Below, piece after piece: positions 9,317 through 45,017 of a DNA stretch of 64,000 bases. Position 1 is the first letter of the stretch, and each line of letters begins with the position of its first letter. A program made the translations under genes and the position numbers. The notes beneath the pieces were generated by a model. That model was not told where the DNA came from. It made no database searches and saw nothing but the letters and a program-made list of their open reading frames with translations. This DNA is from Escherichia coli phage AZ21. The stretch lies in the sequence record LC788708.1; one strand, 5' to 3'.

Positions 9317-9499
9317 ATGCCAGTATCTAAAAATGTTCGTAAAAATGGTAAGAAAGCTACTCGTAATCTGGGTATCCGTCGTATGGCTGAACGTCAATCA
9401 GGTATCCAGAAAATCTTTGATCTGCTAAATCGTGCTAATCCTAAAATTGATAACAGTAACGATACTGTTCTGCGCACCCTGCTGGCAATTGGTCTGTAA
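9317..9499 (+). CDS. small basic protein (60 aa)
   Basis: AAGGAA RBS and its own promoter. Highly basic N-terminus. Confidence 0.55.
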   Translation: MPVSKNVRKNGKKATRNLGIRRMAERQSGIQKIFDLLNRANPKIDNSNDTVLRTLLAIGL

Positions 9500-9552
9500 T
9501 AGACCAAATTTAAACAAATTCAAATCTCAAACTTCATATAAGGAAGCAAATA

Positions 9553-10191: not shown

Positions 10192-10202
10192 TAATTTAAA
10201 AG

Positions 10203-10553
10203 CTAGTAAATCGGTAGACGAAAGCCCAAGCATCTTACCTCGCAGCAGCGGTTGAAATACGAGGTTAAATAAGACCGCTGACCATACTATAAAGTATAAT
10301 CTATTGGAGATTATGTTTATTACACCAGCCTCTTAAGCTGACACGTAAGAACAAAGCGTCGTTGATATTACCGACACAACTTCAAAGATCAACATTTAAG
10401 TATGAAAGCTGAAAAGTTTAAAGAACTCAAACTTCTAAACTTCTAAAGCTAAAAGATGCAAAGTATTCGTTGATGATTCAAACCCTAGATCAAAGGTACA
10501 TGGCTCATAAGATATGGCCTGTGGCGCCTCTAGGCTGTTTATCGGTTTACTAG
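10203..10553 (+). ncRNA. candidate structured non-coding region
   Basis: ORF-free. A 17-bp closing helix pairs 10203-10219 with 10537-10553 (G-U pairs allowed). An internal interleaved CCTCG/GCGGT/CGAGG/ACCGC pattern suggests a pseudoknot. Confidence 0.3.
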
Positions 10554-10574
10554 TTTCACAATTTAAAAATGTAT

Positions 10575-10603
10575 TTGCTAATTTACTAAGTTATCTGTAT
10601 AAT
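10575..10603 (+). promoter_or_regulatory. T5 early-type promoter
   Basis: TTGCTA, 17 nt, TATAAT. Confidence 0.75.
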
Positions 10604-32884: not shown

Positions 32885-33774
32885 TGGGATTTTATAGTAA
32901 TAGAAAACCAAAAGGTGTAACTGGTAAATTCGCAGTTGAAGAAAGACCTTTTCCACCGGTCGATGTAGAGAAACTACGTGAACTTCTAGAAATGCTAGAA
33001 GGTTGCCATGAACGTTGTTATTCTGAACTCTCTTTAAATGAGAAACGTGTTGTTGAGATGTTCTGTATTCGTTCAGCTAGAACAGCTAAAGGTACTTCTC
33101 CAAAAGATGAAGTAAAAGAGTACAGAGTTCTAGTGATGCATGCTTGGGCACAACGTTTTGCAGTTCATTCGCTTCAGGAATGGTTTAATCTTCCAGCCTA
33201 TAAAGATTTTCATGTTTACGAAGATGAGGTTATGAATTATAATGAGTTGTATGGTTTGTCCTTCAAAAAGACAGGCTCACCGATGCATGATGCACTCAAT
33301 TCATTCCCTGATCATTACCTTCCAGTTCGTGAATATAGAGATCGTGAAGGAAATAAACCCTGCTTCACTATTTGGAATAAGTCTAAGACGATATCTGATC
33401 TAGATAATTATTGGTTTCGCACAAAAGAAGGATTCCTAGGAACAGAACCTTTACCTAAGGATCTCAAACCTATCCTTCCGCCTGCGAAACCTAAACATGA
33501 AGTAACGATTGCTATTAATAGAATAATTCTAGGAGCAGATGATCTTACTAAACAAATCGCCGCAGTTATCGCAGTTCTGTTTGACGGTACAAATTCTTCT
33601 GCACGTTATGAGAAGCTAACGGATAACAAATTGCAGATACCTAACGAGTTGTATGAGAGTTCGTGCAAGATCTATGATAACTTTAGTAAAGTAGATTACC
33701 CCGTGAGATCCATTAAAGAACTCATGGAGTATGCGGAGATGGGGATGAAAGGAAATCTCATGTTCGATGAATAA
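32884..33774 (+). CDS. hypothetical protein (296 aa), last gene of the early arm
   Basis: TAATG coupling. Long clean ORF. Confidence 0.7.
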   Translation: MGFYSNRKPKGVTGKFAVEERPFPPVDVEKLRELLEMLEGCHERCYSELSLNEKRVVEMFCIRSARTAKGTSPKDEVKEYRVLVMHAWAQRFAVHSLQEWFNLPAYKDFHVYEDEVMNYNELYGLSFKKTGSPMHDALNSFPDHYLPVREYRDREGNKPCFTIWNKSKTISDLDNYWFRTKEGFLGTEPLPKDLKPILPPAKPKHEVTIAINRIILGADDLTKQIAAVIAVLFDGTNSSARYEKLTDNKLQIPNELYESSCKIYDNFSKVDYPVRSIKELMEYAEMGMKGNLMFDE

Positions 33775-33781
33775 ACTCTAC

Positions 33782-33810
33782 TTGACGTTATGATTTCTGC
33801 ATGTTATAAT
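33782..33810 (+). promoter_or_regulatory. near-consensus sigma70 promoter reading into an ORF-free region
   Basis: TTGACG, 17 nt, TATAAT. Confidence 0.65.
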
Positions 33811-33817
33811 AACTCTA

Positions 33818-33990
33818 TGAAATAACATAGAATAAAGAGATCCACCCGGATACGGATGGTGGATGGGAAACTTCTATTTCCCCCGTAGCTTGTCGGAGGG
33901 CTAGGGAAATCTTAAGAAGTTTTGTACCATCTCACGCAATTCGTATCCCAGGGGTGGAGCATCTCTTCCAATCTTTGGGGATCTTATACT
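33818..33990 (+). ncRNA. candidate promoter-driven structured transcript
   Basis: No ORF. Local hairpins CTATG-aaataa-CATAG, TCCACC..GGTGGA and GGGAAA..TTTCCC. Long-range pairing CCACCCGGATACG / CGTATCCCAGGGGTGG. Confidence 0.3.
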
Positions 33991-34138
33991 TAAATTAAAG
34001 GTAAAACTTTTGGTCACATAATTTACATTCAAGATGATACACTGGTTGCCGCCATTCTTCCTAGGATGGCACAACACTTTCTTCTAGACTCCTAAGTTTC
34101 TAGGAATACTAACTCTAGAGTTTACACTAAACTTTGAA

Positions 34139-34876
34139 TCGGATTCGCACATGCTCTAGGGCAGTTTTTCATCTACTATAAATATCCTAGGCCGGTTTTC
34201 CTATACAGGGCGGTTATGGGGAGGGCGGTTATTTCTAGACAATAAAATTTACTCTTGTCAGTCCAGAAATTACTGTCGGATTTGCACATTGTGTTTCTAG
34301 AAATTTATGGTCGGATTTGCACAATTGCCTAAGTTTTTAGGAACATATAATCTCCTGAAAATGGCAGCATTATTTCGGGCCGAAGGCCCATGATTGCCTG
34401 AGTTTTTTTAGAGACACAGAAATTTTCACTTGTCAAGCTATTTTGCCCCATTTTGCTAATAAAATTTTACTTTATCTCCCCTAATCTCAAATTAACCCAA
34501 ATCTTCTCAACTCTTCTCCAAAATCCCCGCAAATCAGGTGCTCCGCACCAAACATGCGCCCCTCCCGTAGTTCCCCCAAGTTTCTCTCGATCTCTCAACT
34601 TCTCCCCAAACTCATACAATCACACACCCTCCAATCGAAGTCACAAAAATCTTGTCGGATTCGCACAAATAAACCCATGTCGGATTTGCACATATTCTAG
34701 TTAATTCCACAGGATTGATGCGCAGCATCGGATTGCTGGAGTTTTTGGGAGAATTCATTGTCGGATTCGCACACTATAAAAATTTTTCGGGTCGGATTTG
34801 CACACTACCAAAAATTGTCGGATTCGCACATACACGCCCACGCGTAATCCATGGGGGCAAATGTCGGATTTGCACA
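34139..34876 (+). repeat. array of nine direct 14-bp iterons GTCGGATT(T/C)GCACA
   Basis: Copies start at 34139 (lacks the first G), 34275, 34310, 34654, 34679, 34760, 34791, 34817 and 34863. All share one orientation. Confidence 0.9.
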
Positions 34877-34881
34877 AAAGC

Positions 34882-34899
34882 GCAGGGCAATTGCCCTGC
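34882..34899. repeat. perfect 18-bp palindrome GCAGGGCAATTGCCCTGC
   Basis: Read directly from the sequence. Confidence 0.9.
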
Positions 34900-34904
34900 T
34901 TGCC

Positions 34905-35100
34905 TGAATGCGAATGATAATGAGAATCATTTGCATTTAAAAAGCGGAATGAGAATGATAATAATTCGCATTTAAGAATGGAAGTGAGAATTATTCAGGA
35001 AGTGAAACGATTCTCATTTAAAAAGTGAAACGATTCTCATTTAGAAAGTGAAACGCGAATGATAATGATTCGTATTTAAGAATGGAAGTGAGAAACACTA
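34905..35100. promoter_or_regulatory. cluster of Fur-box-like imperfect palindromes and short tandem repeats
   Basis: 19-mers at 34916-34934 and 34951-34969 match GATAATGATAATCATTATC at 16/19 and 15/19 by hand. A 23-bp unit AGTGAAACGATTCTCATTTAAAA is tandem at 35001 and 35024. A ~40-bp direct repeat lies at 34947-34990 and 35054-35094. Confidence 0.6.
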
Positions 35101-35281
35101 TTATTTAAGTTATCCACAGACTTATCAACAGCACGATTTGACTTGACAGAATCCTAGCCATTTTGAGGCGTTATCAACAGACTTATCAACAGCTTATCCT
35201 ACTGTATAAATATACAGTATTCCTATGCAGTGAATAATTCTAATATACAGCTAAAACGCTCTCAAACGCATTCTAACGCGT
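35086..35281. repeat. left arm of a ~200-bp imperfect inverted repeat carrying DnaA-type boxes
   Basis: TTATCCACA at 35110. TTATCAACA at 35122, 35171 and 35183. Aligns with the reverse complement of 39128-39330. Confidence 0.85.
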
Positions 35282-35413
35282 TTAATTTTGGTGGGGATAC
35301 TAAAACAAGGGCAAAATTGGAGGAGGCTTGAAAATTAGTTAGCTCGCTAATGATCACACACGGCGACACGTAACACCCTAACCATTAGCAGGCTAACCAT
35401 CGCGGGCGTGGTC

Positions 35414-35434
35414 AAATGAGAATGATTCTCATTT
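35414..35434. repeat. perfect 21-bp palindrome AAATGAGAAT-G-ATTCTCATTT (Fur-box-like core)
   Basis: Read directly. The TGAGAATGATTCTCA core differs from TGATAATNATTATCA at one symmetric position pair. Confidence 0.85.
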
Positions 35435-35475
35435 GTGGATTGGGGGCGCTTCCTGATAGTTGCGCCCCGTGATTA

Positions 35476-35589
35476 TTATAGTAGGGGGCAACCGTTACGC
35501 TTTGCCCACTCCCGCCACTCATCTTGGTGCCTAGACTTGCGACGGCGTACTAAAAACCGCTTGTACCAGTGATTAAACCATCGTTTCAT
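35476..35589 (-). CDS. possible 37-aa basic Trp-rich peptide, last gene of the leftward cassette
   Basis: ATGA overlap with the upstream gene's stop. MKRWFNHWYKRFLVRRRK... Below the track cutoff. Confidence 0.35.
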   Translation of the reverse strand: MKRWFNHWYKRFLVRRRKSRHQDEWREWAKRNGCPLL

Positions 35590-35789
35590 AAATCCTCCTC
35601 CGGTAGTCGATGCGTGATCTTTTCCTCCTCCCCATAGGAATCCACCAAATACTGATAATAACCATCGTGATCATAAATCACTTTATCATATTCCCCACGC
35701 TCGACCGCTTGCCGATTTTCCAACGTATCAGGCACAAAGAAAGTATCAACGGTAACAGTAGTTTTAGTTACAACAATTTTATCACTCAT
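35586..35789 (-). CDS. pre-early-region hypothetical protein (67 aa)
   Basis: Co-directional cassette. AGGGG RBS region. Confidence 0.55.
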   Translation of the reverse strand: MSDKIVVTKTTVTVDTFFVPDTLENRQAVERGEYDKVIYDHDGYYQYLVDSYGEEEKITHRLPEEDL

Positions 35790-35809
35790 AATGCCATCGC
35801 CCCTAGAAT

Positions 35810-35828
35810 GAGAATGATTATCAATATC
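35810..35828. promoter_or_regulatory. Fur-box-like 19-mer GAGAATGATTATCAATATC
   Basis: 16/19 to the Fur consensus by hand. Lies in the intergenic gap of the leftward cassette. Confidence 0.45.
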
Positions 35829-35915
35829 ATTGTGAAGCCATTACCAAATCGTAAACGCTGGGAATGTTTCCCAGCGGTATTATTAGACTTATGGCTTTGT
35901 GTTTTTCGCCACCAG

Positions 35916-36116
35916 CTATTCACGGTAGACGCTCCATCCGTCTAGCTTCCATTCTTCCCCCTTGCGAATATTGAAAAACCAATCATTAAAATTGTAACCA
36001 TCTTCTGACATGATCACGCCGTTTTCTTTCATGTACAAAAATTCATCACTAGTAAAATATTGATTACTAACTTTAAAACCTTGTTTCATTTTTTCTAGTG
36101 CTTCATCTTTAGTCAT
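35916..36116 (-). CDS. small protein (66 aa) with DUF2829/Tad2-like N-terminal pattern (tentative)
   Basis: MTKDEALEKMKQGFKV... and a Trp-rich C-terminal part. ATGA coupling to the upstream gene. Confidence 0.55.
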   Translation of the reverse strand: MTKDEALEKMKQGFKVSNQYFTSDEFLYMKENGVIMSEDGYNFNDWFFNIRKGEEWKLDGWSVYRE

Positions 36117-36457
36117 TGCGCCACCTTTCGAAACGCTGTTTCAATACTATCCGCAGTGGATTGAATATATGCGCCTTTGAGTATCAGCCGCTCGGTGCAT
36201 ATCTTGCGAAAAATATTAATAAAATCGTCCTCATTTTCTGCGATTAATGCCTCACCCATAACCTGAACGTCGCAAGATGCAAAGGTCAAAAATTGAAACG
36301 CTAGTTCACGGGCAACGACCGCATTGATTTTATAATGCGCCTTGCCTTCATAGATATTAATAACGCCCTTATAAGCTGGCGAAAGCTGATTTAAGTAGTT
36401 TGCTAATAATGCCGGACGGCAATTAGCAACAAAACGATTGCCCTCATAAATAACCAT
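36113..36457 (-). CDS. hypothetical protein (114 aa)
   Basis: Co-directional cassette. Confidence 0.6.
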   Translation of the reverse strand: MVIYEGNRFVANCRPALLANYLNQLSPAYKGVINIYEGKAHYKINAVVARELAFQFLTFASCDVQVMGEALIAENEDDFINIFRKICTERLILKGAYIQSTADSIETAFRKVAQ

Positions 36458-36584
36458 TTGATAGTCTCCCGATTAGATAGCCAGATAATAACATAAAGAT
36501 CCCCAATAAAAGAGGATCATTCTTAAATAAGGTGGCGGTAAAACCGCCAACCATTGCAAGGAGAATAACAATAATGCTTTTCAT
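36444..36584 (-). CDS. possible 46-aa 2-TM peptide
   Basis: ATGA overlap with the upstream stop. MKSIIVILLAMVGGFTATLF...LLLGIFMLLSGYLIG. Below the track cutoff. Confidence 0.45.
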   Translation of the reverse strand: MKSIIVILLAMVGGFTATLFKNDPLLLGIFMLLSGYLIGRLSNGYL

Positions 36585-36793
36585 AGTACCCCACGAAACG
36601 CAGCGTAAAAGGTGGCAAAGTGTTTAACTGTTTCAGCAATCACGTTGCCGCGCTTATCAAATTTCTTTTCTGTAACACGAAAGGCATTTTTATTACGTGC
36701 TACATATTCGATTTTACAATCTTCCCGCTCGAACGTGTTAACATCCACCAGCTTAAAGCCTTTCGAACGTGCAAGAGAAACGTTGCGGATCAT
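36581..36793 (-). CDS. hypothetical basic protein (70 aa)
   Basis: AGGGGA RBS. Confidence 0.55.
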   Translation of the reverse strand: MIRNVSLARSKGFKLVDVNTFEREDCKIEYVARNKNAFRVTEKKFDKRGNVIAETVKHFATFYAAFRGVL

Positions 36794-36795
36794 TT

Positions 36796-36978
36796 TTATT
36801 CCCCTTTACTAGTCATGCAGCCCAGCAGATAAGAAAATACAGCGATGCCAGCACCAATAGTAACCATTGGTTTTATATTTACTAAACCGCAATAGGAATC
36901 CTGAATACCATAAGCGGTGGCGAAAAGAGTCAAAATAGCGCCCAAGATACCCGCTAAAATAGCTCGAAAAATAACCAT
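36796..36978 (-). CDS. 2-TM membrane protein (60 aa)
   Basis: GAGGAG RBS. Two hydrophobic helices. Confidence 0.55.
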   Translation of the reverse strand: MVIFRAILAGILGAILTLFATAYGIQDSYCGLVNIKPMVTIGAGIAVFSYLLGCMTSKGE

Positions 36979-37027
36979 TTGTAATACTCCTCTAGTTAGT
37001 GGGGCGAAAGTAACGCCCCGTTATTAA

Positions 37028-37258
37028 TTACATTAAAATAATTTTTGCCGCTTGTTTTTTGGTACAGTGTTCCGCTTTCAGGGTGTCCAGCAAAAAGCCC
37101 GCCGTTTGCTGATCGATTTTATCGGCATTATATAGTTCTTGGATGGTGTTATAAGTTTTAGCAATGCCGTATTCTTGTACCATTTCTTGAATAATCCAGC
37201 GATTTGATACCCAGCCTTTACCAGTGAAAAGAGCGTCAGAAGAAGAGTAAGCAACCAT
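37028..37258 (-). CDS. hypothetical protein (76 aa)
   Basis: ATG 37258 after a GGAGG RBS. The track start at 37291 lacks an RBS. Confidence 0.55.
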   Translation of the reverse strand: MVAYSSSDALFTGKGWVSNRWIIQEMVQEYGIAKTYNTIQELYNADKIDQQTAGFLLDTLKAEHCTKKQAAKIILM

Positions 37259-37321
37259 TTTAAGCCTCCAAATTTTTGGGAAAATTTTCAACCGTCCTCA
37301 AACGGTGTAAAGGCATTATAA

Positions 37322-37348
37322 CAAAAAAGGCCGCCATAAAAGGCGACC
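37322..37348 (-). terminator. rho-independent terminator (minus strand)
   Basis: GGTCGCC-ttttat-GGCGGCC followed by TTTTTT on the minus strand. Confidence 0.65.
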
Positions 37349-37364
37349 TTTACAAAACTTTACA

Positions 37365-37859
37365 TTAAACTACTTGTAAGGATTCAATATTGAAACATCG
37401 TTTCAGTTCGTCATGCAAAACGGCATATTCATCCCATCGGGTACTATCAGGAATATAAACAAGCTGTTTTAATCGGTTTGCATATATTACCGCTTTGTTA
37501 TCAATTATCTCGACGCCACCATATTTAATAATTAATTTCATGACGGAATTAATAGGATCGCCGCCGTTTACATATGCGCCGGATTTACTTAATTGATAAT
37601 GATAAAGGCTTGCATATACGTTTTCATTTTCATACCATTCGCCAGTCTCTTCGTCTTCATAGCCATCGCTACCAAAACGAGAAGCATTATCAACAGCCAT
37701 TTCATGAGCAAAAGCGTCCAGATCCGTACCAGCAGGAACAAAATATTCCTCGGTATTCCCTTCCCCGCAATAGCCAGTATGACAATCGACTAAAATGATC
37801 ATATCATGTTTAGCCTTGCTCACTTCCCCTAGCGAGAAGCCGTATTTTTCTTCTAACAT
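37365..37859 (-). CDS. hypothetical acidic protein (164 aa)
   Basis: ATG 37859 after AGGAGACTAATT. Confidence 0.65.
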   Translation of the reverse strand: MLEEKYGFSLGEVSKAKHDMIILVDCHTGYCGEGNTEEYFVPAGTDLDAFAHEMAVDNASRFGSDGYEDEETGEWYENENVYASLYHYQLSKSGAYVNGGDPINSVMKLIIKYGGVEIIDNKAVIYANRLKQLVYIPDSTRWDEYAVLHDELKRCFNIESLQVV

Positions 37860-37923
37860 AATTAGTCTCCTATTAATTAACAAGGAAATAGTAAAGCGGG
37901 GAAATAATCCCCGCTAGATATTA

Positions 37924-38157
37924 TTACTCGTTTTCGGTGTTAGTGGTAAAAGTAGAGATATCGATACCTTTTACCATTTCATCGATCATCTCAGCGATGT
38001 TAAAACTTTGCACCATTTCTAACATTGCCGCTTCCATAGCCGCCCCTGCTACCGCTTTCGCTTTCTGATTAGTCGGGGCGTACTGGTCAACCGCTACACT
38101 CAGCAGGTTAGCGATCACTACACGACCAATCGGCGTATCAATATAGCCTTTGATCAT
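37924..38157 (-). CDS. 77-aa ORF, probably the C-terminal part of the upstream gene
   Basis: Open in the +1 frame relative to 38138-38929. No RBS of its own. Confidence 0.5.
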   Translation of the reverse strand: MIKGYIDTPIGRVVIANLLSVAVDQYAPTNQKAKAVAGAAMEAAMLEMVQSFNIAEMIDEMVKGIDISTFTTNTENE

Positions 38158-38929
38158 AAACGGTGCTTTTTTTAGCCGCTACTTTCGTGATTTGAGTTAG
38201 TGCAATTTTACCAGCTTCCAGTTTTGCAGCGTTTACAACAGCGGATTTATTAGCGGCAACGATATTAGCGATCTTGGTCATGGTATTTTTTCCTTTGTTT
38301 TCAGTAGTTTGAGTATTAACGCTTTGAGTGTTAGAGCTTACAACCTGTTTTTCAATATTGTCAACTGGTTTTAGTGTAAATCCAGCATTTGCAACGTTTG
38401 ATTCATTCCCATACTCTAAATAATCACTAGGGATCAACATGTTGCCACTAGCGCGTTCAAAACATAACACGCCAGTTGTAGAAATTACATTACTATCAGC
38501 ACTTTTGTAATTAGCTGATAGTTCACGCCAAATGCTAGTTAATAACGATCCGACACTATCAGTCCTGATATTACTTACTTTTGTTGCTGTTACTTGCTCT
38601 TTTTCTTGCACGTTATATAATCGCGCAATGTAACCACTATTAGATTCACTATAACCAACAATGATAAAATCAATATCTCTTCCACGTTGATTGCGGAAAA
38701 TGTGATAATCACGGTTGAAAATTACTAGCGCCCTTTTCTGGTCTAGTAATTGTGTGAAATCTTCAACTGAATAATGAGTACCCTCATCGTCTAAAATTCT
38801 ATCATGAATCTTTTCGATAATAGTAGCGGTATGCTGTACGCTTGCCGCGCTACTACCCTCTAACAGATTGCGCAAACTGCCTTTAATAATAGTGGCGTTT
38901 GCTGGTACTGCAATTCTTACAGTAGACAT
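38138..38929 (-). CDS. first gene of the leftward cassette (263 aa as written)
   Basis: GGGAG RBS. Ends 27 nt after an A7 run at 38167-38173. Confidence 0.65.
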   Translation of the reverse strand: MSTVRIAVPANATIIKGSLRNLLEGSSAASVQHTATIIEKIHDRILDDEGTHYSVEDFTQLLDQKRALVIFNRDYHIFRNQRGRDIDFIIVGYSESNSGYIARLYNVQEKEQVTATKVSNIRTDSVGSLLTSIWRELSANYKSADSNVISTTGVLCFERASGNMLIPSDYLEYGNESNVANAGFTLKPVDNIEKQVVSSNTQSVNTQTTENKGKNTMTKIANIVAANKSAVVNAAKLEAGKIALTQITKVAAKKSTVYDQRLY

Positions 38930-38961
38930 TTTATTTTGTCTCCCTCGTTAATCGGTGAGTG

Positions 38962-38991
38962 AATGATAAGGGTAATTTTCTAGCATAGGCA
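38962..38991 (-). promoter_or_regulatory. candidate promoter of the leftward cassette
   Basis: On the minus strand: A-tract, TTGCCT, 18 nt, TATCAT. Confidence 0.4.
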
Positions 38992-39127
38992 AATATTATT
39001 TTACTTTTTTATTTTCCTTGCCTAGCGTCTAATTTTATGCTAACCGCGCAGCGGTGCAATAAAGAGCAAACCACGGCGAAGCCACCAGCCCGACGCATTG
39101 AGGCTTTACTTTAATATTACCTTACAG

Positions 39128-39330
39128 CGTTTAGCTCGTTAGAATGCGTTTTGGGCCACTTAAAATTGATTGCAGTTGTTAACACTACCTTTCTACCCTG
39201 TATATTTATACAGTGGAATAACCTGTGGATAAGTCTGTGCAAAAGTCCTTATATCACCGCCTATCGTGTCAAGTTATTTTGTGCTGTGGAAAACATTGTG
39301 GATAACTTAAATGATAGTGCTTCTCACTTA
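39128..39330. repeat. right arm of the ~200-bp imperfect inverted repeat with DnaA-type boxes
   Basis: TGTGGATAA at 39224 and 39297. TGTGGAAAA at 39285. The shared core CTGTATAAATATACAG is also present. Confidence 0.85.
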
Positions 39331-39554
39331 GGCTAATGATTTCTTATAGTTATTATTTCTCATTAATTTATAAGTATATTATATATTATCAAATAGTTAG
39401 TTGGCTAATGAGATTTTCCGTGATTAATAGTCTGCTAATAATTCAGGTCGTTACAATCCACCAGCATGATTATCATTCTAGCAATTATTAGTCTGCTATC
39501 TTTCCGATACATACTAACAAATAAAAGTCAATTAATTTATTTCATAAAATAAGT

Positions 39555-39591
39555 AGTTATCCACTGGAAAATAAAAGTCAAGTGGATAACT
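39555..39591. repeat. palindrome of two inverted DnaA-like boxes
   Basis: AGTTATCCACT - 15 nt - AGTGGATAACT. A further TTATCAACA lies at 39624. Confidence 0.8.
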
Positions 39592-40034
39592 AGGAAAATT
39601 TCATTTTTGCTTTTGGGGATAAGTTATCAACAAGGCTAGAATGCGCCTAAAACGCTCCAGAACGCGATGAAGTTTTTAGCCACCCCATCATAAGGGGATA
39701 GGCCGTTTATCGCTGCCACGAGCTTTTTAGATTTTGTCAAGTAGGGGAAAGCAAATATAAATGAAAAAATTACTTGCCTATTTGCTTTATTTTGTGGTAT
39801 TCGCGCCCGTTTCTTTTAATTTTAGGCCGTCGCCGGACGTGGTGCGGTGAATTTTGTCTTTACGTTTCTTTACAAAAATAAGGTTGCGCCATTTTCGGGA
39901 ATCCCCTATTATTTATCACGTAGGGCGGCAATGACGAACTACACGGCGGGAAGTTTACCGCCACGCTCTTTAAAAATTGGGTACATCTTAAAGCCTATCG
40001 GCGGTAAACTTATTTATTATAAGGAATCGACGAT

Positions 40035-40247
40035 ATGAAACAAACTTTATTGATCACTGGCAAGCCTATTAAGGCACTAGATAGCAAAACAAAAAATTTG
40101 TTGACAGTAGCGCAAAGATCGGTAAAATACCGATTCACGCAGTACAAGAAAGACCGCCAGCAAGGTTTAGAAATGATCTGGCGAAACATTATGATTGACT
40201 TGAAAGAAAATCATAAAAAACTGCAAAAAAATTATTTGACAACCTAG
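40035..40247 (+). CDS. doubtful 70-aa basic ORF inside the bracketed segment
   Basis: AAGGAAT RBS-like sequence, but the segment contains several -35/-10-like elements. Confidence 0.3.
   Translation: MKQTLLITGKPIKALDSKTKNLLTVAQRSVKYRFTQYKKDRQQGLEMIWRNIMIDLKENHKKLQKNYLTT
40101..40128 (+). promoter_or_regulatory. candidate pre-early promoter
   Basis: TTGACA, 16 nt, TAAAAT. Confidence 0.45.
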
Positions 40248-40264
40248 CCGATAGGTTTTAAGAT
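40236..40264 (+). promoter_or_regulatory. candidate pre-early promoter of the A2-A1-dmp operon
   Basis: TTGACA, 17 nt, TAAGAT. Confidence 0.55.
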
Positions 40265-40391
40265 GTACCCAGTTCGATAAGAGCGATAACTTGATAAAAT
40301 TTGACGGTCGGTGCTTACCATAATGCGCCCCGCCCCCTAACGGGATATAGCGGCCTACGTGGAGTTCTTTAAATTGATTATAGCGGCGAGA

Positions 40392-40445
40392 GGATTGTTA
40401 CTTATTACCTGCTAGTATTTTCTAGTAGGTAATAAGTAACAATCC
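40392..40445. repeat. 54-nt near-perfect palindrome (24-bp stem, 6-nt loop)
   Basis: GGATTGTTACTTATTACCTGCTAG-tatttt-CTAGTAGGTAATAAGTAACAATCC. Lies just upstream of the first operon RBS. Confidence 0.9.
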
Positions 40446-40468
40446 ATCAAATAACTGGAGTTTATATT

Positions 40469-40720
40469 ATGCAAAACGTTATTACCGCGCCTAAAATTGG
40501 TCAATCCGTCTTTATTCCTTTCGTTACTAAAACGGATGAATTAACCGGAAAGGCCGAACGTATTAAAGGTGCGGCGCTTATGCCGTTCGATACAATCGAC
40601 GCGGTATATGCTGAAAATGAACGCAGTAACAACGGCAAGCCCGTTTTTAGCGTTCGCGTTAAATCCGGCGATGTTGTAAAGGTTGTTCAACGCAACGAAA
40701 AATGGGAAGCTGTGTTGTAA
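40469..40720 (+). CDS. pre-early hypothetical protein (83 aa)
   Basis: CTGGAG RBS. Followed by a hairpin at 40734-40763. Confidence 0.65.
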   Translation: MQNVITAPKIGQSVFIPFVTKTDELTGKAERIKGAALMPFDTIDAVYAENERSNNGKPVFSVRVKSGDVVKVVQRNEKWEAVL

Positions 40721-40818
40721 TTTAGTGTTAACTTTATATCCCCCTTATTTCAGGGGGATATAACGATTAACATTAAGTTAATCTAATCCCTTAAATTAAA
40801 CTAATAGGAGTTTTTACC

Positions 40819-41226
40819 ATGACTAACGCAAAAACCGCAAAATTCGCATGGAATGAAGAAAACACTCAGAAAGCTGTTACCATGTACCAGCAGTTAATCA
40901 ACGAAAACGGTTTAGATTTTGCAAATAGCGACGGCCTGAAAGAGATTGCAAAAGCAGTAGGCGCGGCCTCCCCCGTATCCGTTCGGTCAAAATTGACCAG
41001 TGCAAAAGCCTATCAAAAAAGCGATAAGCCGCGTAAAGTTGGCGGCGGTAGCTCTGTGCGTAAAGCTCACTATGTGCGAGTAATTGCAAAACACGCTATC
41101 GATTCCGGTATTATCAAAGACGCCGATGATCTGGCAAGCCTTGAAAGTGCTAAACTGGAAACGCTGGACGCGGTGGCGCAACTGTTAGGCGTTGCCGATG
41201 AAGTAAAACAAGCCGTAGGTGAATAA
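40819..41226 (+). CDS. A2: pre-early protein A2
   Basis: 135 aa. Size, position just upstream of A1 and recalled sequence character match T5 A2. Confidence 0.75.
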   Translation: MTNAKTAKFAWNEENTQKAVTMYQQLINENGLDFANSDGLKEIAKAVGAASPVSVRSKLTSAKAYQKSDKPRKVGGGSSVRKAHYVRVIAKHAIDSGIIKDADDLASLESAKLETLDAVAQLLGVADEVKQAVGE

Positions 41227-41316
41227 TAGTTATACCTTGCCCCCTTCTAGTGAGGGGGCACTAATATAACTGTTTAGCGATAGTTATTTTCTTCCCTTAA
41301 ATCAGGAGTTTTAAAA

Positions 41317-41514
41317 ATGGTTTTCTTCCCTACTGAATCTTTGATTCTAGGCTTGTTTATTATGGCGGCCTCATTATTGTTCGCTTATTTTCAGAATGAT
41401 TTAGATTCGTATTATTTTAAACGTAAATCTAAATTAGCAAAACGTTTGGGCTTGCTTTGTTTTATCGCTGCCGTTGCCTGTGGTGTTAGTTCGAGTCTAG
41501 TACCATTAAATTAA
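41317..41514 (+). CDS. pre-early 2-TM membrane protein (65 aa)
   Basis: CAGGAG RBS. Two hydrophobic helices. Confidence 0.6.
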   Translation: MVFFPTESLILGLFIMAASLLFAYFQNDLDSYYFKRKSKLAKRLGLLCFIAAVACGVSSSLVPLN

Positions 41515-41601
41515 TGTTGCAAATTATAACGCCTATTATTCGAGGCGTTATATTTGGCAATATTGCCATTATTAACCTAATCCCTTTAATGGAGTTTTAT
41601 T

Positions 41602-43272
41602 ATGATTATTTCCGCAGAAAAACAAACCGTTATCCTGAAAATGGCCGCTGATTTCAATTTCTACGGTAAACGCCTGCGCGCCACTAAACTGGAGGTCTGC
41701 GACGATATTTCAAAAGCGGTCTACGATACAACGAAACACTCCACCGCTATCTGCGACTGGCTGGAAGCAAATAAACCAGCGAAACCAAAAGCGGCAAAAG
41801 TAGCAAAAGCCATTAAAAACGGTGAGCGCCCCGAAGCGGCTGGGATTGTTTCTAGTACCGTGGAGCAGTGGGAAGTAAAACAAGGTAAACGCTTTATTAT
41901 TACATCGATTCAGAATAATACTTTCCCGCATAAAAACTTTTTAGCCTCACTGGAGCAATTTGCTAAATATATCGGGGCTGATTTGCTCGTTTCTAAGTAT
42001 ATTTATAATAAAAACGGTTTTCAAAATGGGGAAGGTGCTGACGGAATCAAATATGATTCCGCGTTTGATAAATATATTTGCAGCAAAAACGTGTTTTTGA
42101 ATAACCGCCGCTTTGCTTTCATGGCTGAAATTAATGTTTTGCCTACCGCAGATTATCCGCTTTCTGGATTCGCAGAAACTGCAACGGCTTTAAATATTGA
42201 AGGTCTGGCAATTGGTCACGCTAAAATTACCGCTGAAAGCGTACCAGCTTTAAAAGGTGAAGTAGTGCGCCGTATGTACTCAACCGGAACGGCAACGCTC
42301 AAAAACTACATTCAGCAGAAAGCAGGACAAAAGGCCGAGGCGCTGCATAACTTCGGTGCGCTTATTGTTGAGTTCGACGAGGACGGGGAATTTTTTGTAC
42401 GCCAGCTTGAAACGATGGACGAAAGCGGGGTATTTTATGATCTGAATGTGTGTGCTACTCCTGCCGGATGCTATGAAACATCGGGGCATGTTTTAGGCTT
42501 GCAGTATGGCGATATTCACGCCGAAAAATTAGATGAGGAGTGCGCCGCCGCGTCATGGGGGCATGGTGATACTTATGGGCTAGTAGATATTCTTAAACCA
42601 AAATATCAGTTTGTGCATGACGTGCATGATTTTACATCGCGCAATCATCATAACCGCGCATCGGGTGTATTCCTAGCAAAACAGTACGCCGCCGGACGTG
42701 ATAAGGTTATTGATGATCTTATCGATACGGGGCGCGTGCTGGAATCAATGGAGCGTGATTTTTCTCAAACAATCATTGTTGAATCGAATCACGATTTGGC
42801 GTTATCCCGTTGGCTTGATGATCGTAATGCTAACATCAAAGACGATCCAGCAAACGCAGAACTGTATCACCGCCTGAATGCTGCAATTTACGAGGCAATC
42901 GGTGAACATGACGAAACGTTCAACGTGCTAGATTATGCGCTGCGCAAGGTTGCAGGTTGTGAGTTTAACGCCATTTTCCTGACCACTGACCAATCTTTCA
43001 AGATTGCAGGCATTGAATGCGGCGTACACGGTCACAACGGCATTAATGGCAGTCGTGGCAATCCCAAACAATTTAAGAAATTGGGCAAGTTAAACACTGG
43101 TCATACTCATACGGCAAGCATTTACGGCGGGGTATATACCGCTGGCGTAGCTGGTAGTCTGGATATGGGTTACAACGTTGGCGCGTCAAGCTGGACGCAA
43201 ACTCATTTAATTACCTATGCAAACGGTCAGCGCACTTTGATTGACTTTAAGAACGGTAAATTTTTTGCGTAA
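41602..43272 (+). CDS. A1: pre-early protein A1 (metallophosphoesterase-type nuclease motifs)
   Basis: 556 aa, the T5 A1 length by recall. C-terminal half has GDIHAEK, VESNHD, GVHGHNG and TGHTH motifs of calcineurin-like/Mre11-type phosphoesterases. Confidence 0.8.
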   Translation: MIISAEKQTVILKMAADFNFYGKRLRATKLEVCDDISKAVYDTTKHSTAICDWLEANKPAKPKAAKVAKAIKNGERPEAAGIVSSTVEQWEVKQGKRFIITSIQNNTFPHKNFLASLEQFAKYIGADLLVSKYIYNKNGFQNGEGADGIKYDSAFDKYICSKNVFLNNRRFAFMAEINVLPTADYPLSGFAETATALNIEGLAIGHAKITAESVPALKGEVVRRMYSTGTATLKNYIQQKAGQKAEALHNFGALIVEFDEDGEFFVRQLETMDESGVFYDLNVCATPAGCYETSGHVLGLQYGDIHAEKLDEECAAASWGHGDTYGLVDILKPKYQFVHDVHDFTSRNHHNRASGVFLAKQYAAGRDKVIDDLIDTGRVLESMERDFSQTIIVESNHDLALSRWLDDRNANIKDDPANAELYHRLNAAIYEAIGEHDETFNVLDYALRKVAGCEFNAIFLTTDQSFKIAGIECGVHGHNGINGSRGNPKQFKKLGKLNTGHTHTASIYGGVYTAGVAGSLDMGYNVGASSWTQTHLITYANGQRTLIDFKNGKFFA

Positions 43273-43328
43273 TTAAATTATTTCCCTAGCGGCTTGAAAT
43301 ACAGCCGCTATTACAGGAGCTAAATTAA

Positions 43329-43607
43329 ATGGCTATTAAAATTAATCTTCCCAATATTAAAAACACCGCTGATATATGGTCGATTGATACTATATTGCGT
43401 GGCACTGTATACCGTAATTTAAAAGATAATAATTGTTATATTTATCAAAATGAATTAAACGGCCATATTTACATAATCGAGTCCGATGGTTTTTGTTCTT
43501 TTGAGACTGATTATGAAGCGCAAGATCATATACAGGCAAATGATATTCCTGACGTATGGAAAGAAACAAACCTTGCTTTTGTTGTAAGTCTTGAAGCTAA
43601 CAAATAA
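43329..43607 (+). CDS. pre-early hypothetical protein (92 aa)
   Basis: CAGGAG RBS. Confidence 0.6.
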   Translation: MAIKINLPNIKNTADIWSIDTILRGTVYRNLKDNNCYIYQNELNGHIYIIESDGFCSFETDYEAQDHIQANDIPDVWKETNLAFVVSLEANK

Positions 43608-43645
43608 ATTAAATATCTTATTAAATTAATTGGAGTTTTACAAAT

Positions 43646-44038
43646 ATGAAAAAGCAAAATATTCCATTCGATCGCGCTCAGTCTTCTATTGTTCTGGTTT
43701 ATTCTAATGGTGAGCGTTACCACGTCGAGGCGGGGCACGTTATTGATGAATTATTAGATTTCAATGACGCTTTACAGGTTACTACCTTTGCCTACACGCA
43801 AGGCCGCGCAAGTAGTTACATTAAGGCCGCAGGCGTTTATGTTGACACGGTGAAACAAGAAACGATTATCATCGACGCAGTAAAATCCGGTCTAGCCTTT
43901 GCAGTTGTCGCGCCTTGCCCCTCTTGTCTTGATGATCAGCTAACGAGTGCGAAAGTATACACCTGCGCGGGCATTCGTTCCCATGTATCAGGAGAGGATA
44001 TTAGTTTTATCGCTGATGCGTTGGCTTATGGTCTTTAA
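43646..44038 (+). CDS. pre-early hypothetical protein (130 aa)
   Basis: TTGGAG RBS. Confidence 0.6.
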   Translation: MKKQNIPFDRAQSSIVLVYSNGERYHVEAGHVIDELLDFNDALQVTTFAYTQGRASSYIKAAGVYVDTVKQETIIIDAVKSGLAFAVVAPCPSCLDDQLTSAKVYTCAGIRSHVSGEDISFIADALAYGL

Positions 44039-44118
44039 TAGTTGATTTATTATTGCCCGCTGATAGATAGCGGGCAATGCTGGATAAACTACATCCCTTT
44101 AATGGAGAACGTAACAAA

Positions 44119-44853
44119 ATGAATCAAGTTAAAACGAATATTTCCCGTAACTTCCCGCATATTTCCCGCGTCATGATCTGGGATCTTGATGGCACTATCG
44201 TTAATTCATTCCATCGTGTAGCGCCTTGCTTTGATAGTGAGGGTAATCTAGATTTAAATAAGTATAAGAATGAGGCTTGCAAACATGATTTAATAATGCA
44301 GGATACTTTATTGCCTTTGGTGGAATATATGCGCCAATGCATGAATGACGCAAATACTTTAAACATTATTTGTACCGCTCGATTAATGAGCAAATCGGAT
44401 TATTATTATTTGCGCAAACAAGGCTTGCGAGGGCGTGGGGATAGCAATATCCGCGTGTTTTCCCGCGACACGCTGCATAAATATTTTGAAGCTGATAAGG
44501 TTAGCGAGATATACCACAGTAAAGACGCAGTTTATAAATCGTATTACTTTGAATTATTTAAACAGCTATATCCGAACGCTGATTTCACAATGATTGATGA
44601 TCATAAAGGTGTATTATCAGCGGCGGCGTCATACGGATTTAAAACGCTAGACGCGCAAGCCGTTAACGATATTCTATCAATCGGCGTGGCATTGATAGGC
44701 GGAACCTTTATTGATGAATCTCTCGATGATGATAATGATTATCAGTTCCTAGCCGATCGATTGAAATTATGTTGGGAAAGTATGACCGAAGAAGAACGCG
44801 CAGAATATAGTTGCAGCCCGCAACAATATATTGAGAAATTAAAAGTTGCGTAA
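44119..44853 (+). CDS. dmp: 5'-deoxyribonucleotidase (HAD family)
   Basis: 244 aa from ATG 44119. The track start at 44077 lies in hairpin 44052-44078. HAD motif I is IWDLDGTIV. Confidence 0.8.
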   Translation: MNQVKTNISRNFPHISRVMIWDLDGTIVNSFHRVAPCFDSEGNLDLNKYKNEACKHDLIMQDTLLPLVEYMRQCMNDANTLNIICTARLMSKSDYYYLRKQGLRGRGDSNIRVFSRDTLHKYFEADKVSEIYHSKDAVYKSYYFELFKQLYPNADFTMIDDHKGVLSAAASYGFKTLDAQAVNDILSIGVALIGGTFIDESLDDDNDYQFLADRLKLCWESMTEEERAEYSCSPQQYIEKLKVA

Positions 44854-44870
44854 TAATTAAAGTTGAAATA

Positions 44871-44907
44871 GTTTCATCCTGCAATTAAAATGGTTGCGGG
44901 ATGAAAC
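44871..44907 (+). terminator. 14-bp GC-rich hairpin closing the A2-A1-dmp operon
   Basis: GTTTCATCCTGCAA-9 nt-TTGCGGGATGAAAC. No clear T-run. Confidence 0.5.
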
Positions 44908-45017
44908 AATTACCCTGCTAATAGTAACGGGGGTGGCGGTTAGCAGACTAAGTATTCTCCCCCAACCCACTGGACACACCTCCATGTGTAATCCTATGAA
45001 ATTTGGCAAAAGTCAAA

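What the first reader, a model, noticed from the sequence alone, without database searches (positions are those of the whole stretch)
34905..35434. Cluster of Fur-box-like palindromes (GAGAATGATTCTC family) in the non-coding region and inside the leftward cassette
- **Matches to the E. coli Fur consensus GATAATGATAATCATTATC, by hand alignment:** 34916-34934 matches 16/19, 34951-34969 matches 15/19 and 35810-35828 matches 16/19.
- **Perfect palindrome:** the 21-bp palindrome at 35414-35434 has the core TGAGAATGATTCTCA. This differs from the 7-1-7 Fur motif at a single symmetric position pair.
- **Related half-sites:** these recur in the 23-bp tandem repeats at 35001-35046.
- **Why it matters:** such density is unlikely to be accidental.
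- **Possible roles:** iron-responsive control of pre-early transcription. Titration of host Fur by replicating phage DNA, which would derepress iron uptake and so serve the phage's own iron-dependent class Ia RNR. Operators for an unidentified phage repressor with a Fur-like specificity.
Basis: partly seen in the sequence, partly recalled or inferred. Interest (0 to 1): 0.6.

Follow-up and report, generated by a model that had tools for sequence, protein, structure and literature searches.

The report
Fur-box arrays at T5 injection stop
The non-coding "injection stop" region of this T5-like coliphage holds a dense, family-wide conserved array of sequences that look exactly like top-grade binding sites for the host iron regulator Fur, next to known DnaA boxes; this gives a testable candidate for the unknown host factor behind T5's two-step DNA entry.

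Summary

- **Source:** the window is Escherichia phage AZ23, a Tequintavirus. The finding lies in the T5 "Repeat Region 3", the injection-stop-signal (iss) region. The motifs are T5's catalogued but unexplained DRC repeats and palindromes E to I.
- **Score:** I built a Fur weight matrix from 16 experimentally proven E. coli sites. All 8 sites of at least 17 bits in the 104-kb genome fall within 900 bp (18.9 to 27.5 bits). Shuffles give 0.01.
- **Arrangement:** four of them form Fur-typical overlapping pairs 6 bp apart.
- **Conservation:** equivalent arrays sit between the DRD repeats/7.9% nick and the DnaA boxes in Tequinta-, Epseptima- and Sugarlandvirus, Pantoea phage AAS21 and Vibrio phage PG07.
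- **Independent check:** in bacterial genomes the exact palindrome lies upstream of fur, ECF sigma factor, TonB-receptor, FTR1 and ferritin-like genes.

There is no promoter to control, and the region is a convergent-transcription gap. Titration is implausible because T5 destroys host DNA early.

Best reading: genuine Fur operators that, with the DnaA boxes, form a host-protein-coated segment at the first-step/second-step transfer border. Fur binding itself and any role in DNA entry are untested. A phage protein such as A2 remains a rival.

The parts
34913..34937 (.). Fur-like operator pair A: two overlapping 19-bp sites centred at 34922 (18.9 bits) and 34928 (23.6 bits), 6 bp apart. Equivalent to T5 DRC4/palI.
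   Evidence: Matrix scan. Alignment to T5. T5 annotation.
34948..34972 (.). Fur-like operator pair B: sites centred at 34957 (20.4 bits) and 34963 (25.4 bits). It lies 35 bp from pair A. Equivalent to T5 DRC3/palG.
   Evidence: The 35-nt spacing recurs in other genera.
35001..35046 (.). Two 23-nt tandem repeats, each with one good half-site ATTCTCATT. As full sites they are weak (8.8 bits, centres 35009 and 35032).
   Evidence: The copy number of this module varies among relatives.
35052..35076 (.). Fur-like operator pair C: sites centred at 35061 (12.6 bits) and 35067 (23.1 bits). Equivalent to T5 DRC1/palE.
35415..35433 (.). Isolated palindromic Fur-like operator AATGAGAATGATTCTCATT (27.5 bits), downstream of a terminator-like hairpin (GGGGCGC...GCGCCCC, about 35445-35471). 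The unit GG(C/T)G(C/T)GGTCAAATGAGAA is shared with Vibrio phage PG07. T5 has nothing aligned here.
   Evidence: Missing from T5 in the alignment.
35807..35831 (.). Fur-like operator pair D inside the leftward cassette: sites centred at 35816 (27.2 bits) and 35822 (21.2 bits). It sits between a terminator-like hairpin (35856-35876) and the ATG of ORF 35586-35789(-). The stronger site is identical in TrudiRoth; saus176N has a close variant.
35110..35191 (+). Two pairs of DnaA and DnaA-like boxes: TTATCCACA at 35110-35118, and TTATCAACA at 35122-35130, 35171-35179 and 35183-35191. These correspond to T5 IRC'-spacer-IRD'.
   Evidence: Sequence. Repeat family D12. Davison 2020, 10.1101/866236.
35200..35219 (.). 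Palindrome D (TACTGTATAAATATACAGTA). It is conserved even in the Vibrio phages.
34880..34899 (.). Palindrome J (34882-34899) and the sequence GCGCAGGG (34880-34887), which corresponds to the T5 7.9% major single-strand nick. The first Fur-like site starts 14 nt further on.
   Evidence: T5 annotation. Alignment.
34139..34877 (+). Nine DRD direct repeats (TCGGATTYGCACA), iteron-like, straddling the inferred end of the terminal repeat.
   Evidence: Repeat family D3. T5 annotation.

Best explanation
The elements are genuine operators for the host ferric uptake regulator Fur. They are arranged as an array of three overlapping site pairs plus half-site modules, mostly in 35-bp register. The array lies between the 7.9% nick/DRD repeats and the paired DnaA boxes of the T5-type injection-stop region. 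Two further operators sit behind terminator-like hairpins at the end of the pre-early cassette.

**Proposed mechanism.** When the first about 8% of the genome has entered, this segment is the last DNA exposed to the cytoplasm. Holo-Fur dimers already present in the cell coat about 170 bp of it, two per overlapping pair on opposite faces of the helix. DnaA binds the adjacent boxes. The resulting host-protein nucleoprotein block marks the border between first-step and second-step DNA. It would help hold the DNA there, and/or stop RNA polymerase from reading out of the pre-early cassette into DNA that is still spanning the envelope, until phage A1/A2 restart transfer. Because only iron-loaded Fur binds DNA, the block would depend on iron status.

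**Shown here:**
- sequence identity with Fur operators;
- statistical excess;
- 6-bp pairing;
- position in the region;
- conservation across genera;
- absence of a promoter context.

**Inferred:** that Fur actually binds (my estimate about 0.8), and that binding serves the two-step transfer (about 0.35).
For: 1. **Score.** Eight sites of 18.9-27.5 bits against a matrix of 16 proven E. coli sites whose leave-one-out mean is 19.7. They are the only sites of at least 17 bits in the genome. Shuffles give 0.01.
2. **Fur-specific architecture.** Four pairs overlap with a 6-bp shift. Chen et al. 2007 report this spacing for all 11 of their initially footprinted E. coli Fur sites.
3. **Deep conservation of motif and position despite sequence turnover.** Arrays scoring up to 28.5 bits lie between the DRD-type repeats/nick and the DnaA boxes in T5, TrudiRoth, saus176N, Sugarland (Klebsiella), AAS21 (Pantoea) and Vibrio phage PG07. 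PG07 shares only a 49-nt BLAST match with the window. Its DRD-type repeats have changed sequence, while the DnaA and Fur-like boxes have not. That pattern is expected if the latter two are read by conserved host proteins.
4. **Not circular.** The 9-mers shared by all five distant arrays are AATGCGAAT, AATGAGAAT and AATGATAAT.
5. **Selection pattern.** Among 16 distinct T5-like sequences, positions that are informative for Fur are less variable than uninformative positions within the sites and than spacer positions (P about 0.005).
6. **Independent genomic context.** The exact palindrome AATGAGAATnATTCTCATT occurs in at least 120 bacterial loci, and 101 of 121 occurrences are not inside long ORFs. 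Of the first 20 flanking ORFs, 14 had Pfam matches. These include FUR itself, 2 ECF sigma factors, 2 ZnuA, 2 SBP_bac_6-type solute-binding proteins (of the kind that includes Fe3+ transporters), a TonB-receptor plug, FTR1, a siderophore-type binding protein, a ferritin-like protein and AhpC.
7. **A pre-existing factor is required.** First-step transfer stops in vivo without protein synthesis, yet ejection runs to completion in vitro. A pre-existing host factor is therefore implied and is still unidentified (Davison 2020; BF23 paper PMC10644984).
8. **Position.** The array starts 14 nt from the T5 7.9% nick equivalent. In T5 it spans the estimated shear point at 9618.
Against: - No experiment shows that Fur binds this DNA.
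- I know of no report that fur mutants are defective for T5 growth (my own knowledge, not tested here), so any role would be non-essential or redundant with DnaA.
- The phage half-sites favour G and CG (AATGAGAAT, AATGCGAAT) over the Fur optimum AATGATAAT. AATGCGAAT is absent from the 32 proven E. coli half-sites. This could mean a binder with a slightly different preference.
- Two Vibrio lineages, D149 and Cilsick, carry unrelated repeat arrays in the homologous slot. A Fur-type array is therefore not obligatory.
- Proteins bound on the cytoplasmic side do not obviously stop DNA that is being pushed from the capsid, so the braking step is conjecture.
- 83% of E. coli Fur clusters overlap promoters. 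These do not.
Confidence: 0.5

Rival explanations
1. The boxes are operators for a phage-encoded or virion-borne DNA-binding protein whose specificity happens to resemble Fur's. The obvious candidate is A2, which is essential for second-step transfer. Binding would serve the restart of DNA transfer and not the stop.
For: - A2 is a DNA-binding protein, essential, and thought to associate with viral DNA to assist second-step transfer by an unknown mechanism.
- A2 is conserved across the family.
- The phage half-site preference (G, CG) deviates slightly from the Fur optimum.
- Some Vibrio lineages have other arrays in the same slot, as expected for a co-evolving phage protein.
Against: - AZ23 A2 is about equally diverged from A2 of PG07 (40%), D149 (43%) and Cilsick (43%). 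Yet only PG07 keeps the Fur-type array, so array type does not track A2 divergence.
- The A2 model (pLDDT 85) is all-helical with no significant structural match and no Fur-like winged helix.
- The genome encodes no Fur homologue.
- The 6-bp overlapping hexamer architecture and the identical sequence upstream of bacterial iron genes fit Fur specifically.
- The stop itself needs no phage protein synthesis.
Confidence: 0.2
2. The region is, or derives from, a replication-origin-like or terminus-processing module: iterons (DRD x9), AT-rich repeats and paired DnaA boxes, as in iteron plasmids. On this view the AT-rich repeats act as unwinding or bending elements and their Fur likeness is secondary.
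For: - The order iteron-like DRD repeats, then a 32% G+C repeat block, then paired DnaA boxes resembles P1, F or pSC101-type origins (the comparison rests on my own knowledge).
- Module copy number is fluid, 233-410 nt.
- D149 and Cilsick have other AT-rich repeats in the same place.
Against: - T5 origins were mapped near the genome centre, and replication genes are not on first-step DNA (Davison 2020).
- Unwinding elements do not need a 9-1-9 palindrome with a Fur information profile, nor the pattern of position-specific conservation seen here.
- The isolated boxes at 35424 and 35816 lie away from the DnaA/iteron block.
Confidence: 0.1
3. The boxes are classical Fur operators over promoters, giving iron-responsive transcription of a small pre-early ORF (35586-35789) and/or of an unannotated non-coding RNA in the gap.
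For: - The 35816/35822 pair lies 27 nt upstream of an ORF start and just after a terminator-like hairpin.
- Most E. coli Fur clusters overlap promoters.
Against: - Promoter-like sites are not enriched.
- The best candidate reading into the array has a -10 hexamer that is not conserved.
- There is no Rfam match.
- The main array sits in a convergent-transcription gap without ORFs.
- In T5 no site of at least 15 bits lies at an annotated pre-early promoter.
Confidence: 0.1
4. The boxes act as a decoy that titrates Fur away from host operators to raise iron uptake for the phage's ribonucleotide reductase.
For: - There are several high-affinity sites per terminal repeat and two repeats per genome, multiplied by replication.
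- The phage encodes nrdA and nrdD.
Against: - T5 degrades host DNA within minutes, during the pre-early phase (abstract). Host iron genes cannot be derepressed when phage copy number rises.
- The conserved placement next to the nick and DnaA boxes is unnecessary for a decoy.
Confidence: 0.05

Closest known systems
T5 Repeat Region 3 / injection stop signal: direct repeats DRC1-4 and palindromes E, F, G, H, I (Heusterspreute 1987; Wang 2005; Davison 2015 and 2020)
   Same: It is the same locus. Window 35480-34860 (reverse complement) aligns with T5 9150-9700. The Fur-like sites coincide with DRC1/palE, DRC3/palG and DRC4/palI. The neighbours are the same too: palD, paired DnaA boxes, palJ, the 7.9% nick and the DRD repeats.
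   Different: The literature I could read lists these elements as repeats and palindromes of unknown function. It names only DnaA, with IHF and Fis as possibilities, as binding proteins. 'Fur' does not occur in Davison 2020 or in the 2026 T5 preprint, and three searches pairing T5-related terms with Fur terms returned nothing relevant. AZ23 also has two boxes that T5 lacks, at 35424 and 35816/22.
E. coli Fur operator clusters (for example ryhB, gpmA, fhuF, iucA; Chen et al. 2007, PMC2189734)
   Same: The 19-bp 9-1-9 motif, scores in the top range of the E. coli genome, overlapping sites 6 bp apart, and multi-site clusters spanning tens of bp to over 100 bp. The reverse complement of site 34963 (AATGCGAATTATTATCATT) shares 13 of 19 positions with the ryhB operator AATAATAATCATTCTCATT.
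   Different: There is no overlapping promoter and no downstream gene for the main array. The array is periodic, in 35-bp register, and lies in a lytic phage's terminal repeat.
Fur sites in lambdoid prophage DNA upstream of nohA/nohB, the Nu1 terminase homologues (Chen et al. 2007, Table 4)
   Same: These are strong Fur sites (22.3 and 25.3 bits; nohA confirmed by gel shift) in phage-derived DNA, near genome-end-processing genes and not near iron genes.
   Different: Each is a small cluster of 3-4 overlapping sites within 25-28 bp and not a periodic array. The function is equally unknown, the phage family is unrelated, and they were not examined here.
Davison's DnaA-box model of the T5 injection stop (bioRxiv 10.1101/866236)
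   Same: The same logic applies: a pre-existing host DNA-binding protein recognises conserved boxes at the iss. The Fur arrays directly adjoin those DnaA boxes.
   Different: It concerns a different protein, and it too is untested. Fur is cytosolic and metal-dependent, which would add an iron input that the DnaA model lacks.

Membership tests
Fur operator (Fur box) | 19-bp 9-1-9 inverted repeat that scores as a site against a matrix of proven sites (Chen et al. use at least 10 bits for genome scans). | tested here: met
   Eight sites of 18.9-27.5 bits. The proven sites have a leave-one-out mean of 19.7. Shuffles give 0.01 sites of at least 17 bits.
Fur operator (Fur box) | Overlapping sites shifted by 6 bp (hexamer register), allowing two dimers on opposite faces. 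| tested here: met
   Pairs at 34922/34928, 34957/34963, 35061/35067 and 35816/35822. The 6-nt spacing is seen 9 times across 7 phages.
Fur operator (Fur box) | The same sequence is used in front of Fur-regulon genes in bacteria. | tested here: met
   The exact palindrome lies next to FUR, ECF sigma, ZnuA, Fe3+-type binding protein, TonB plug, FTR1, ferritin-like and AhpC genes. 101 of 121 occurrences are not inside long ORFs.
Fur operator (Fur box) | Overlaps or adjoins a promoter that it represses (83% of E. coli clusters). | tested here: not met
   There is no promoter enrichment, no conserved -10/-35 pair and no downstream gene for the main array. The result is inconclusive for the 35816/22 pair.
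Fur operator (Fur box) | Bound by Fur-Fe2+/Mn2+ in vitro or in vivo. | not testable with these tools
   Needs EMSA, footprinting, FURTA or ChIP.
T5-type injection stop region (Repeat Region 3) | Long untranslated stretch at the inner end of the terminal repeat, between the last pre-early ORF and the early genes. | tested here: met
   The non-coding gap is 33775-35585. The terminal-repeat equivalent is window about 34410-44976.
T5-type injection stop region (Repeat Region 3) | Ordered elements: palD, paired DnaA boxes, DRC/palE-I, palJ with the nick sequence, then the DRD repeats. | tested here: met
   Collinear alignment with T5 9238-10579 at 87% identity. Repeat families. T5 features.
T5-type injection stop region (Repeat Region 3) | DNA transfer actually pauses here. 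| not testable with these tools
   Known for T5 and BF23 from the literature. Not known for AZ23.
Phage-encoded Fur-family regulator system | A Fur-family protein (PF01475) encoded by the phage. | tested here: not met
   tblastn with E. coli Fur against the whole AZ23 genome gives a best E of 0.17 over 48 aa. A2 has no Fur-like fold.

The most novel reading that the evidence does not exclude
Host Fur, together with DnaA, is the long-sought pre-existing host factor of the T5 injection stop. Iron-loaded Fur coats the array at the 8% border, so the pause between first-step and second-step DNA transfer, or the protection of that border from transcription, is gated by the iron status of the cell. 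That would be fitting for a phage family that enters through iron-regulated TonB-dependent receptors. Related Fur-box arrays in other uncultivated phage contigs would then point to a wider use of Fur as an architectural protein by phages.
Probability: 0.15. Interest if true: 0.85.

Novelty: new variant of a known kind. Interest (0 to 1): 0.68.

Why it matters
What stops T5 DNA after 8% has entered has been unexplained since the Lanni model of the 1960s. The stop needs no phage protein synthesis and does not occur in vitro, so a host factor is expected but unidentified.

This analysis turns a set of catalogued but unexplained repeats in the iss into a concrete molecular hypothesis: top-grade Fur operators next to the DnaA boxes. 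Standard tools can test it, namely fur mutants, iron chelation, EMSA, and the T5 reverse genetics that now exists.

It would also be an unusual use of Fur sites: periodic, without a promoter, and apparently architectural. It would link iron status to the entry programme of phages that use iron-regulated receptors.

Even if Fur turns out not to be the binder, the family-wide conserved 19-bp motif defines the site of whichever protein is.

Tried and rejected
- **Promoter and terminator scan of 33800-36200.** Promoter-like sites are not enriched (10 against 6.3 +/- 3.0). The best one reading into the array is not conserved. The classical promoter-operator reading was rejected for the main array.
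- **Rfam scan of 33700-36200 at E up to 1.** Only a chance snoRNA-like match at 19 bits. No known RNA.
- **Phage Fur homologue.** tblastn with E. coli Fur on the window and on the full genome found nothing.
- **A2 as a Fur-like protein.** Pfam gave only a weak EcoEI_R_C hit (E 0.085). There was no PDB sequence match. The AlphaFold model (pLDDT 85) had no Foldseek hit below E = 0.7. The fold is uninformative and not Fur-like.
- **Literature.** Three searches pairing T5-related terms with Fur terms ('phage T5' + 'Fur box'; 'first step transfer' + 'ferric uptake regulator'; 'Tequintavirus' + 'Fur') returned nothing relevant, and a broader search ('Fur box' + 'lytic phage' + 'phage genome') found no paper. 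Davison 2015 (PMC4743489) is not held. Heusterspreute 1987 and Wang 2005 were not looked up, so an earlier mention of Fur cannot be excluded.
- **The 16-mer scan of viral contigs.** It mostly returned unrelated contigs. I used them as a 784-kb negative control.
- **Column-wise conservation.** It is complicated by gain and loss of repeat modules. The test uses only columns with at least 12 of 16 sequences, and it does not correct for relatedness.
- **Chance or AT-richness.** Rejected on the shuffles.
Full report
**Identity of the locus.**
- The window is 100% identical to Escherichia coli phage AZ23 (LC788707.1, Tequintavirus). Window position equals record position minus 33912.
- The finding lies in the long untranslated stretch between rightward genes ending at 33774 and a leftward cassette starting at 35789.
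- The reverse complement of window 34860-35480 aligns collinearly with T5 9150-9700. BLAST maps T5 1-10579 onto window 44976-33977.
- This is therefore T5's "Repeat Region 3", the presumed injection stop signal (iss) at the inner end of the terminal repeat.
- In the T5 record the same stretch is annotated with palindrome D, inverted repeats D'/C', direct repeats C1-C4, palindromes E to J, the 7.9% major nick and nine DRD repeats.
- Davison (bioRxiv 10.1101/866236) describes these as highly conserved, writes that it is "impossible to guess" their functions, and highlights only the DnaA boxes.

**Checking the observation.**
- The hand counts are right: 16/19, 15/19 and 16/19 (17/19 on the other strand). 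The 21-mer at 35414-35434 is a perfect 10-1-10 inverted repeat.
- For a proper test I rebuilt the single-dimer (9-1-9) Fur model of Chen et al. 2007 (PMC2189734). I used 16 footprinted or gel-shifted E. coli K-12 sites, with coordinates from their Tables 3-4 and sequences fetched from NC_000913.3.
- Leave-one-out scores reproduce the published ones, so the matrix is a fair copy.
- In the window, the eight sites of at least 17 bits are centred at 34922, 34928, 34957, 34963, 35067, 35424, 35816 and 35822 (18.9-27.5 bits). No other exists in the window or in the rest of the 104-kb genome.
- The proven E. coli sites average 19.7 bits. Only 42 clusters in the 4.6-Mb E. coli genome reach 17 bits.
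- Dinucleotide-preserving shuffles of 34890-35840 give 0.01 such sites on average. 784 kb of unrelated viral DNA holds three.
- Four of the five locations are pairs shifted by exactly 6 bp. This is the arrangement Chen et al. report for all 11 of their initially footprinted E. coli sites.
- The position at which GAGAAT departs from GATAAT is among the least informative of the half-site (G in 28% of real half-sites). ATTCTCATT occurs verbatim in the gpmA, ryhB, exbB and fepB operators.

**Independent check without the matrix.**
- The exact palindrome AATGAGAATnATTCTCATT was found in at least 120 loci of a one-genome-per-species bacterial collection. 101 of 121 occurrences were not inside long ORFs.
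- I took the first 20 flanking ORFs in list order. Six had no family and look spurious.
- The other 14 comprised a FUR-family gene, two ECF sigma factors, two ZnuA-type and two SBP_bac_6-type (FbpA-like) binding proteins, a TonB-dependent receptor plug, an FTR1 iron permease, a siderophore-type periplasmic binding protein, a ferritin-like protein, AhpC, a porin and an RPE65 protein.
- The phage palindrome is therefore a sequence that bacteria across phyla place in front of Fur-regulon-type genes.

**Conservation.**
- The region is alignable in over 400 T5-like phages. More telling are distant relatives.
- Arrays of 4-9 sites (up to 28.5 bits) lie in the same slot, between the DRD-type repeats with the GCGC nick sequence and the DnaA boxes. 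This holds in T5, Epseptimavirus (TrudiRoth, saus176N), Klebsiella phage Sugarland, Pantoea phage AAS21 and Vibrio phage PG07.
- PG07 shares only a 49-nt BLAST match with the window. Its DRD-type repeats have a different sequence (AGAATCCGCACTCACA), yet its DnaA boxes and Fur-like boxes are unchanged.
- That contrast is what one expects if the DRD repeats are read by a co-evolving phage protein and the other two by conserved host proteins.
- Spacings between sites are drawn from 6, 17, 23, 29, 35 and 41 nt, with 6 and 35 dominant in all genera.
- The 9-mers common to all five distant arrays, found without the matrix, are AATGCGAAT, AATGAGAAT and AATGATAAT.
- Information falls off outside +/-9 of the site centre (those sites were chosen with the matrix, so this part is partly circular).
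- Module number is fluid: 233-410 nt between the last DRD repeat and the first DnaA pair.
- Among 16 distinct sequences, the positions informative for Fur are less variable than the uninformative positions within sites and than spacers. Mean column entropy is 0.22 against 0.51 and 0.38 (P about 0.005, not corrected for relatedness).
- The isolated box at 35424 has no aligned counterpart in T5, but it sits in a unit (…GGTCAAATGAGAA…) shared with PG07.
- The stronger site of the 35816/22 pair is identical in TrudiRoth, and saus176N has a close variant.
- Two other Vibrio lineages, D149 and Cilsick, carry unrelated repeat arrays in the slot. D149 keeps one Fur-like box in the distal conserved unit.

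**What it is probably not.**
- *A promoter operator.* Promoter-like matches are not enriched, and the best one pointing into the array is not conserved. There is no Rfam hit and no ORF. Transcription converges on the gap from both sides. In T5 no site of at least 15 bits lies at any annotated pre-early promoter.
- *A decoy for Fur.* T5 degrades host DNA in the pre-early phase, so there would be nothing left to derepress.
- *A site for a phage Fur-like protein.* None is encoded.
- *A site for A2.* A2 is the essential pre-early DNA-binding protein and the natural phage candidate. Its model is all-helical with no significant structural neighbour. Its divergence from AZ23 is the same (40-43%) in PG07, which keeps the Fur-type array, and in D149 and Cilsick, which do not. 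This weakens the A2 reading but does not exclude it.

**Most likely mechanism.**
- First-step transfer stops in vivo without protein synthesis, while ejection through FhuA in vitro is complete. A pre-existing host component is therefore implied and remains unidentified. Later papers say the role of the iss repeats is untested.
- The array begins 14 nt from the 7.9% nick equivalent. In T5 it spans the estimated shear point at 9618. It is thus about the last DNA to reach the cytoplasm before the pause.
- I therefore read the array as genuine Fur operators. Together with the adjoining DnaA boxes they would form a host-protein-coated segment at the first-step/second-step border.
- The two outlying operators, each just downstream of a terminator-like hairpin in the direction of pre-early transcription, fit a layered barrier that keeps RNA polymerase away from DNA still spanning the envelope. 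That detail is inference.
- What is shown is sequence identity, excess, architecture, position and conservation. Fur binding (my estimate 0.8) and a role in two-step transfer (0.35) are inferred.
- Points against:
  - a bias toward G/CG half-sites that are not the Fur optimum;
  - lineages with other arrays in the slot;
  - no known T5 phenotype of fur mutants (my own knowledge);
  - no obvious physical way for a cytoplasmic complex to brake DNA pushed from the capsid.

**Comparison with known systems and novelty.**
- The elements themselves are already catalogued in T5, and Fur operators are a well-known kind.
- What appears new is the equation of the two. 'Fur' is absent from Davison 2020 and from the 2026 T5 preprint, and three searches pairing T5-related terms with Fur terms found nothing relevant. 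Older subscription papers could not be read.
- Also new is the context: a periodic, promoter-less array in a lytic phage's terminal repeat.
- The nearest precedents are the strong Fur sites upstream of the prophage terminase-homologue genes nohA and nohB, whose function is also unknown.
- I class this as a new variant of a known kind. Interest is fairly high because it makes an old open question directly testable.

Noticed in passing
IMG/VR loci L329 (1810-1888), L294 (2688-2780), L273 (4749-4997), L295, L332: The exact palindrome AATGAGAATnATTCTCATT occurs in at least 120 viral contigs. Fourteen loci have 3 or more sites of at least 17 bits within 400 nt, and 11 of those lack T5-type DRD repeats. 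L329 carries three perfect 30-nt tandem copies. L273 and L294 carry the GGCGCGGT-type unit next to the box, as seen in AZ23 and PG07, so they may be distant Demerecviridae.
   Followed up: partly
L140 (Vibrio phage D149) 6980-7210; L139 (Vibrio phage Cilsick) 1-120: In the slot where T5-like phages have Fur-type arrays, D149 has four copies of an unrelated AT-rich repeat (ATTATTGTAYTATTATAYTATTGTAYGACAAA). Cilsick has CTAGACTTCTAKCCATC-type repeats. Neither reaches 14 bits on the Fur matrix. What binds them is unknown.
   Followed up: partly
window 34139-34877; L136 (Vibrio phage PG07) 1470-1930: The nine iteron-like DRD repeats (TCGGATTYGCACA) have a different sequence in PG07 (AGAATCCGCACTCACA), while the neighbouring DnaA and Fur-like boxes are unchanged. 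This suggests the DRD repeats are read by a co-evolving phage protein. The order iterons, AT-rich repeats, DnaA boxes also resembles iteron-plasmid origins.
   Followed up: no
window 35371-35434; L136 2375-2450; L140 7480-7530; L139 415-470: A short unit, ACGTAAC ... GCCGGAnnGGCGCGGT (GGGCGTGGT in AZ23), flanks the distal Fur-like box. It is recognisable in AZ23, PG07, D149 and Cilsick despite otherwise unalignable DNA. Its function is unknown.
   Followed up: no
window 44728-44746 (centre 44737) = T5 231-249: A 16.2-bit Fur-like site, with a 17/19 consensus match at 44725-44743, lies inside the dmp coding sequence about 240 bp from the left genome terminus. The T5 site at the equivalent position has the same score.
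   Followed up: no
window 35916-36116 (- strand): This 66-aa pre-early ORF has a weak Pfam match to the Thoeris anti-defence Tad2-like domain (E = 0.005, 17.8 bits, below the 25-bit cut-off).
   Followed up: no
window 34410-44976: The AZ23 record (104 kb) appears to hold a single collapsed copy of the roughly 10.5-kb terminal repeat, placed internally. T5 position 1 maps to window 44976 and the T5 repeat end to about 34410.
   Followed up: partly
window 38930-40035 (T5 repeat regions 1-2): Only weak Fur-like sites lie here (39319 at 13.9 bits, 39348 at 12.3 bits), in the divergent pre-early promoter region that also carries the second copy of the DnaA-box inverted repeat. Epseptimaviruses have somewhat stronger sites further into the same terminal repeat, on the pre-early side of the array (TrudiRoth 5510 at 19.8 bits; saus176N 5606 at 16.0 bits, next to a second DnaA-box cluster at 5523-5584); whether these map to the same region was not checked.
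   Followed up: no
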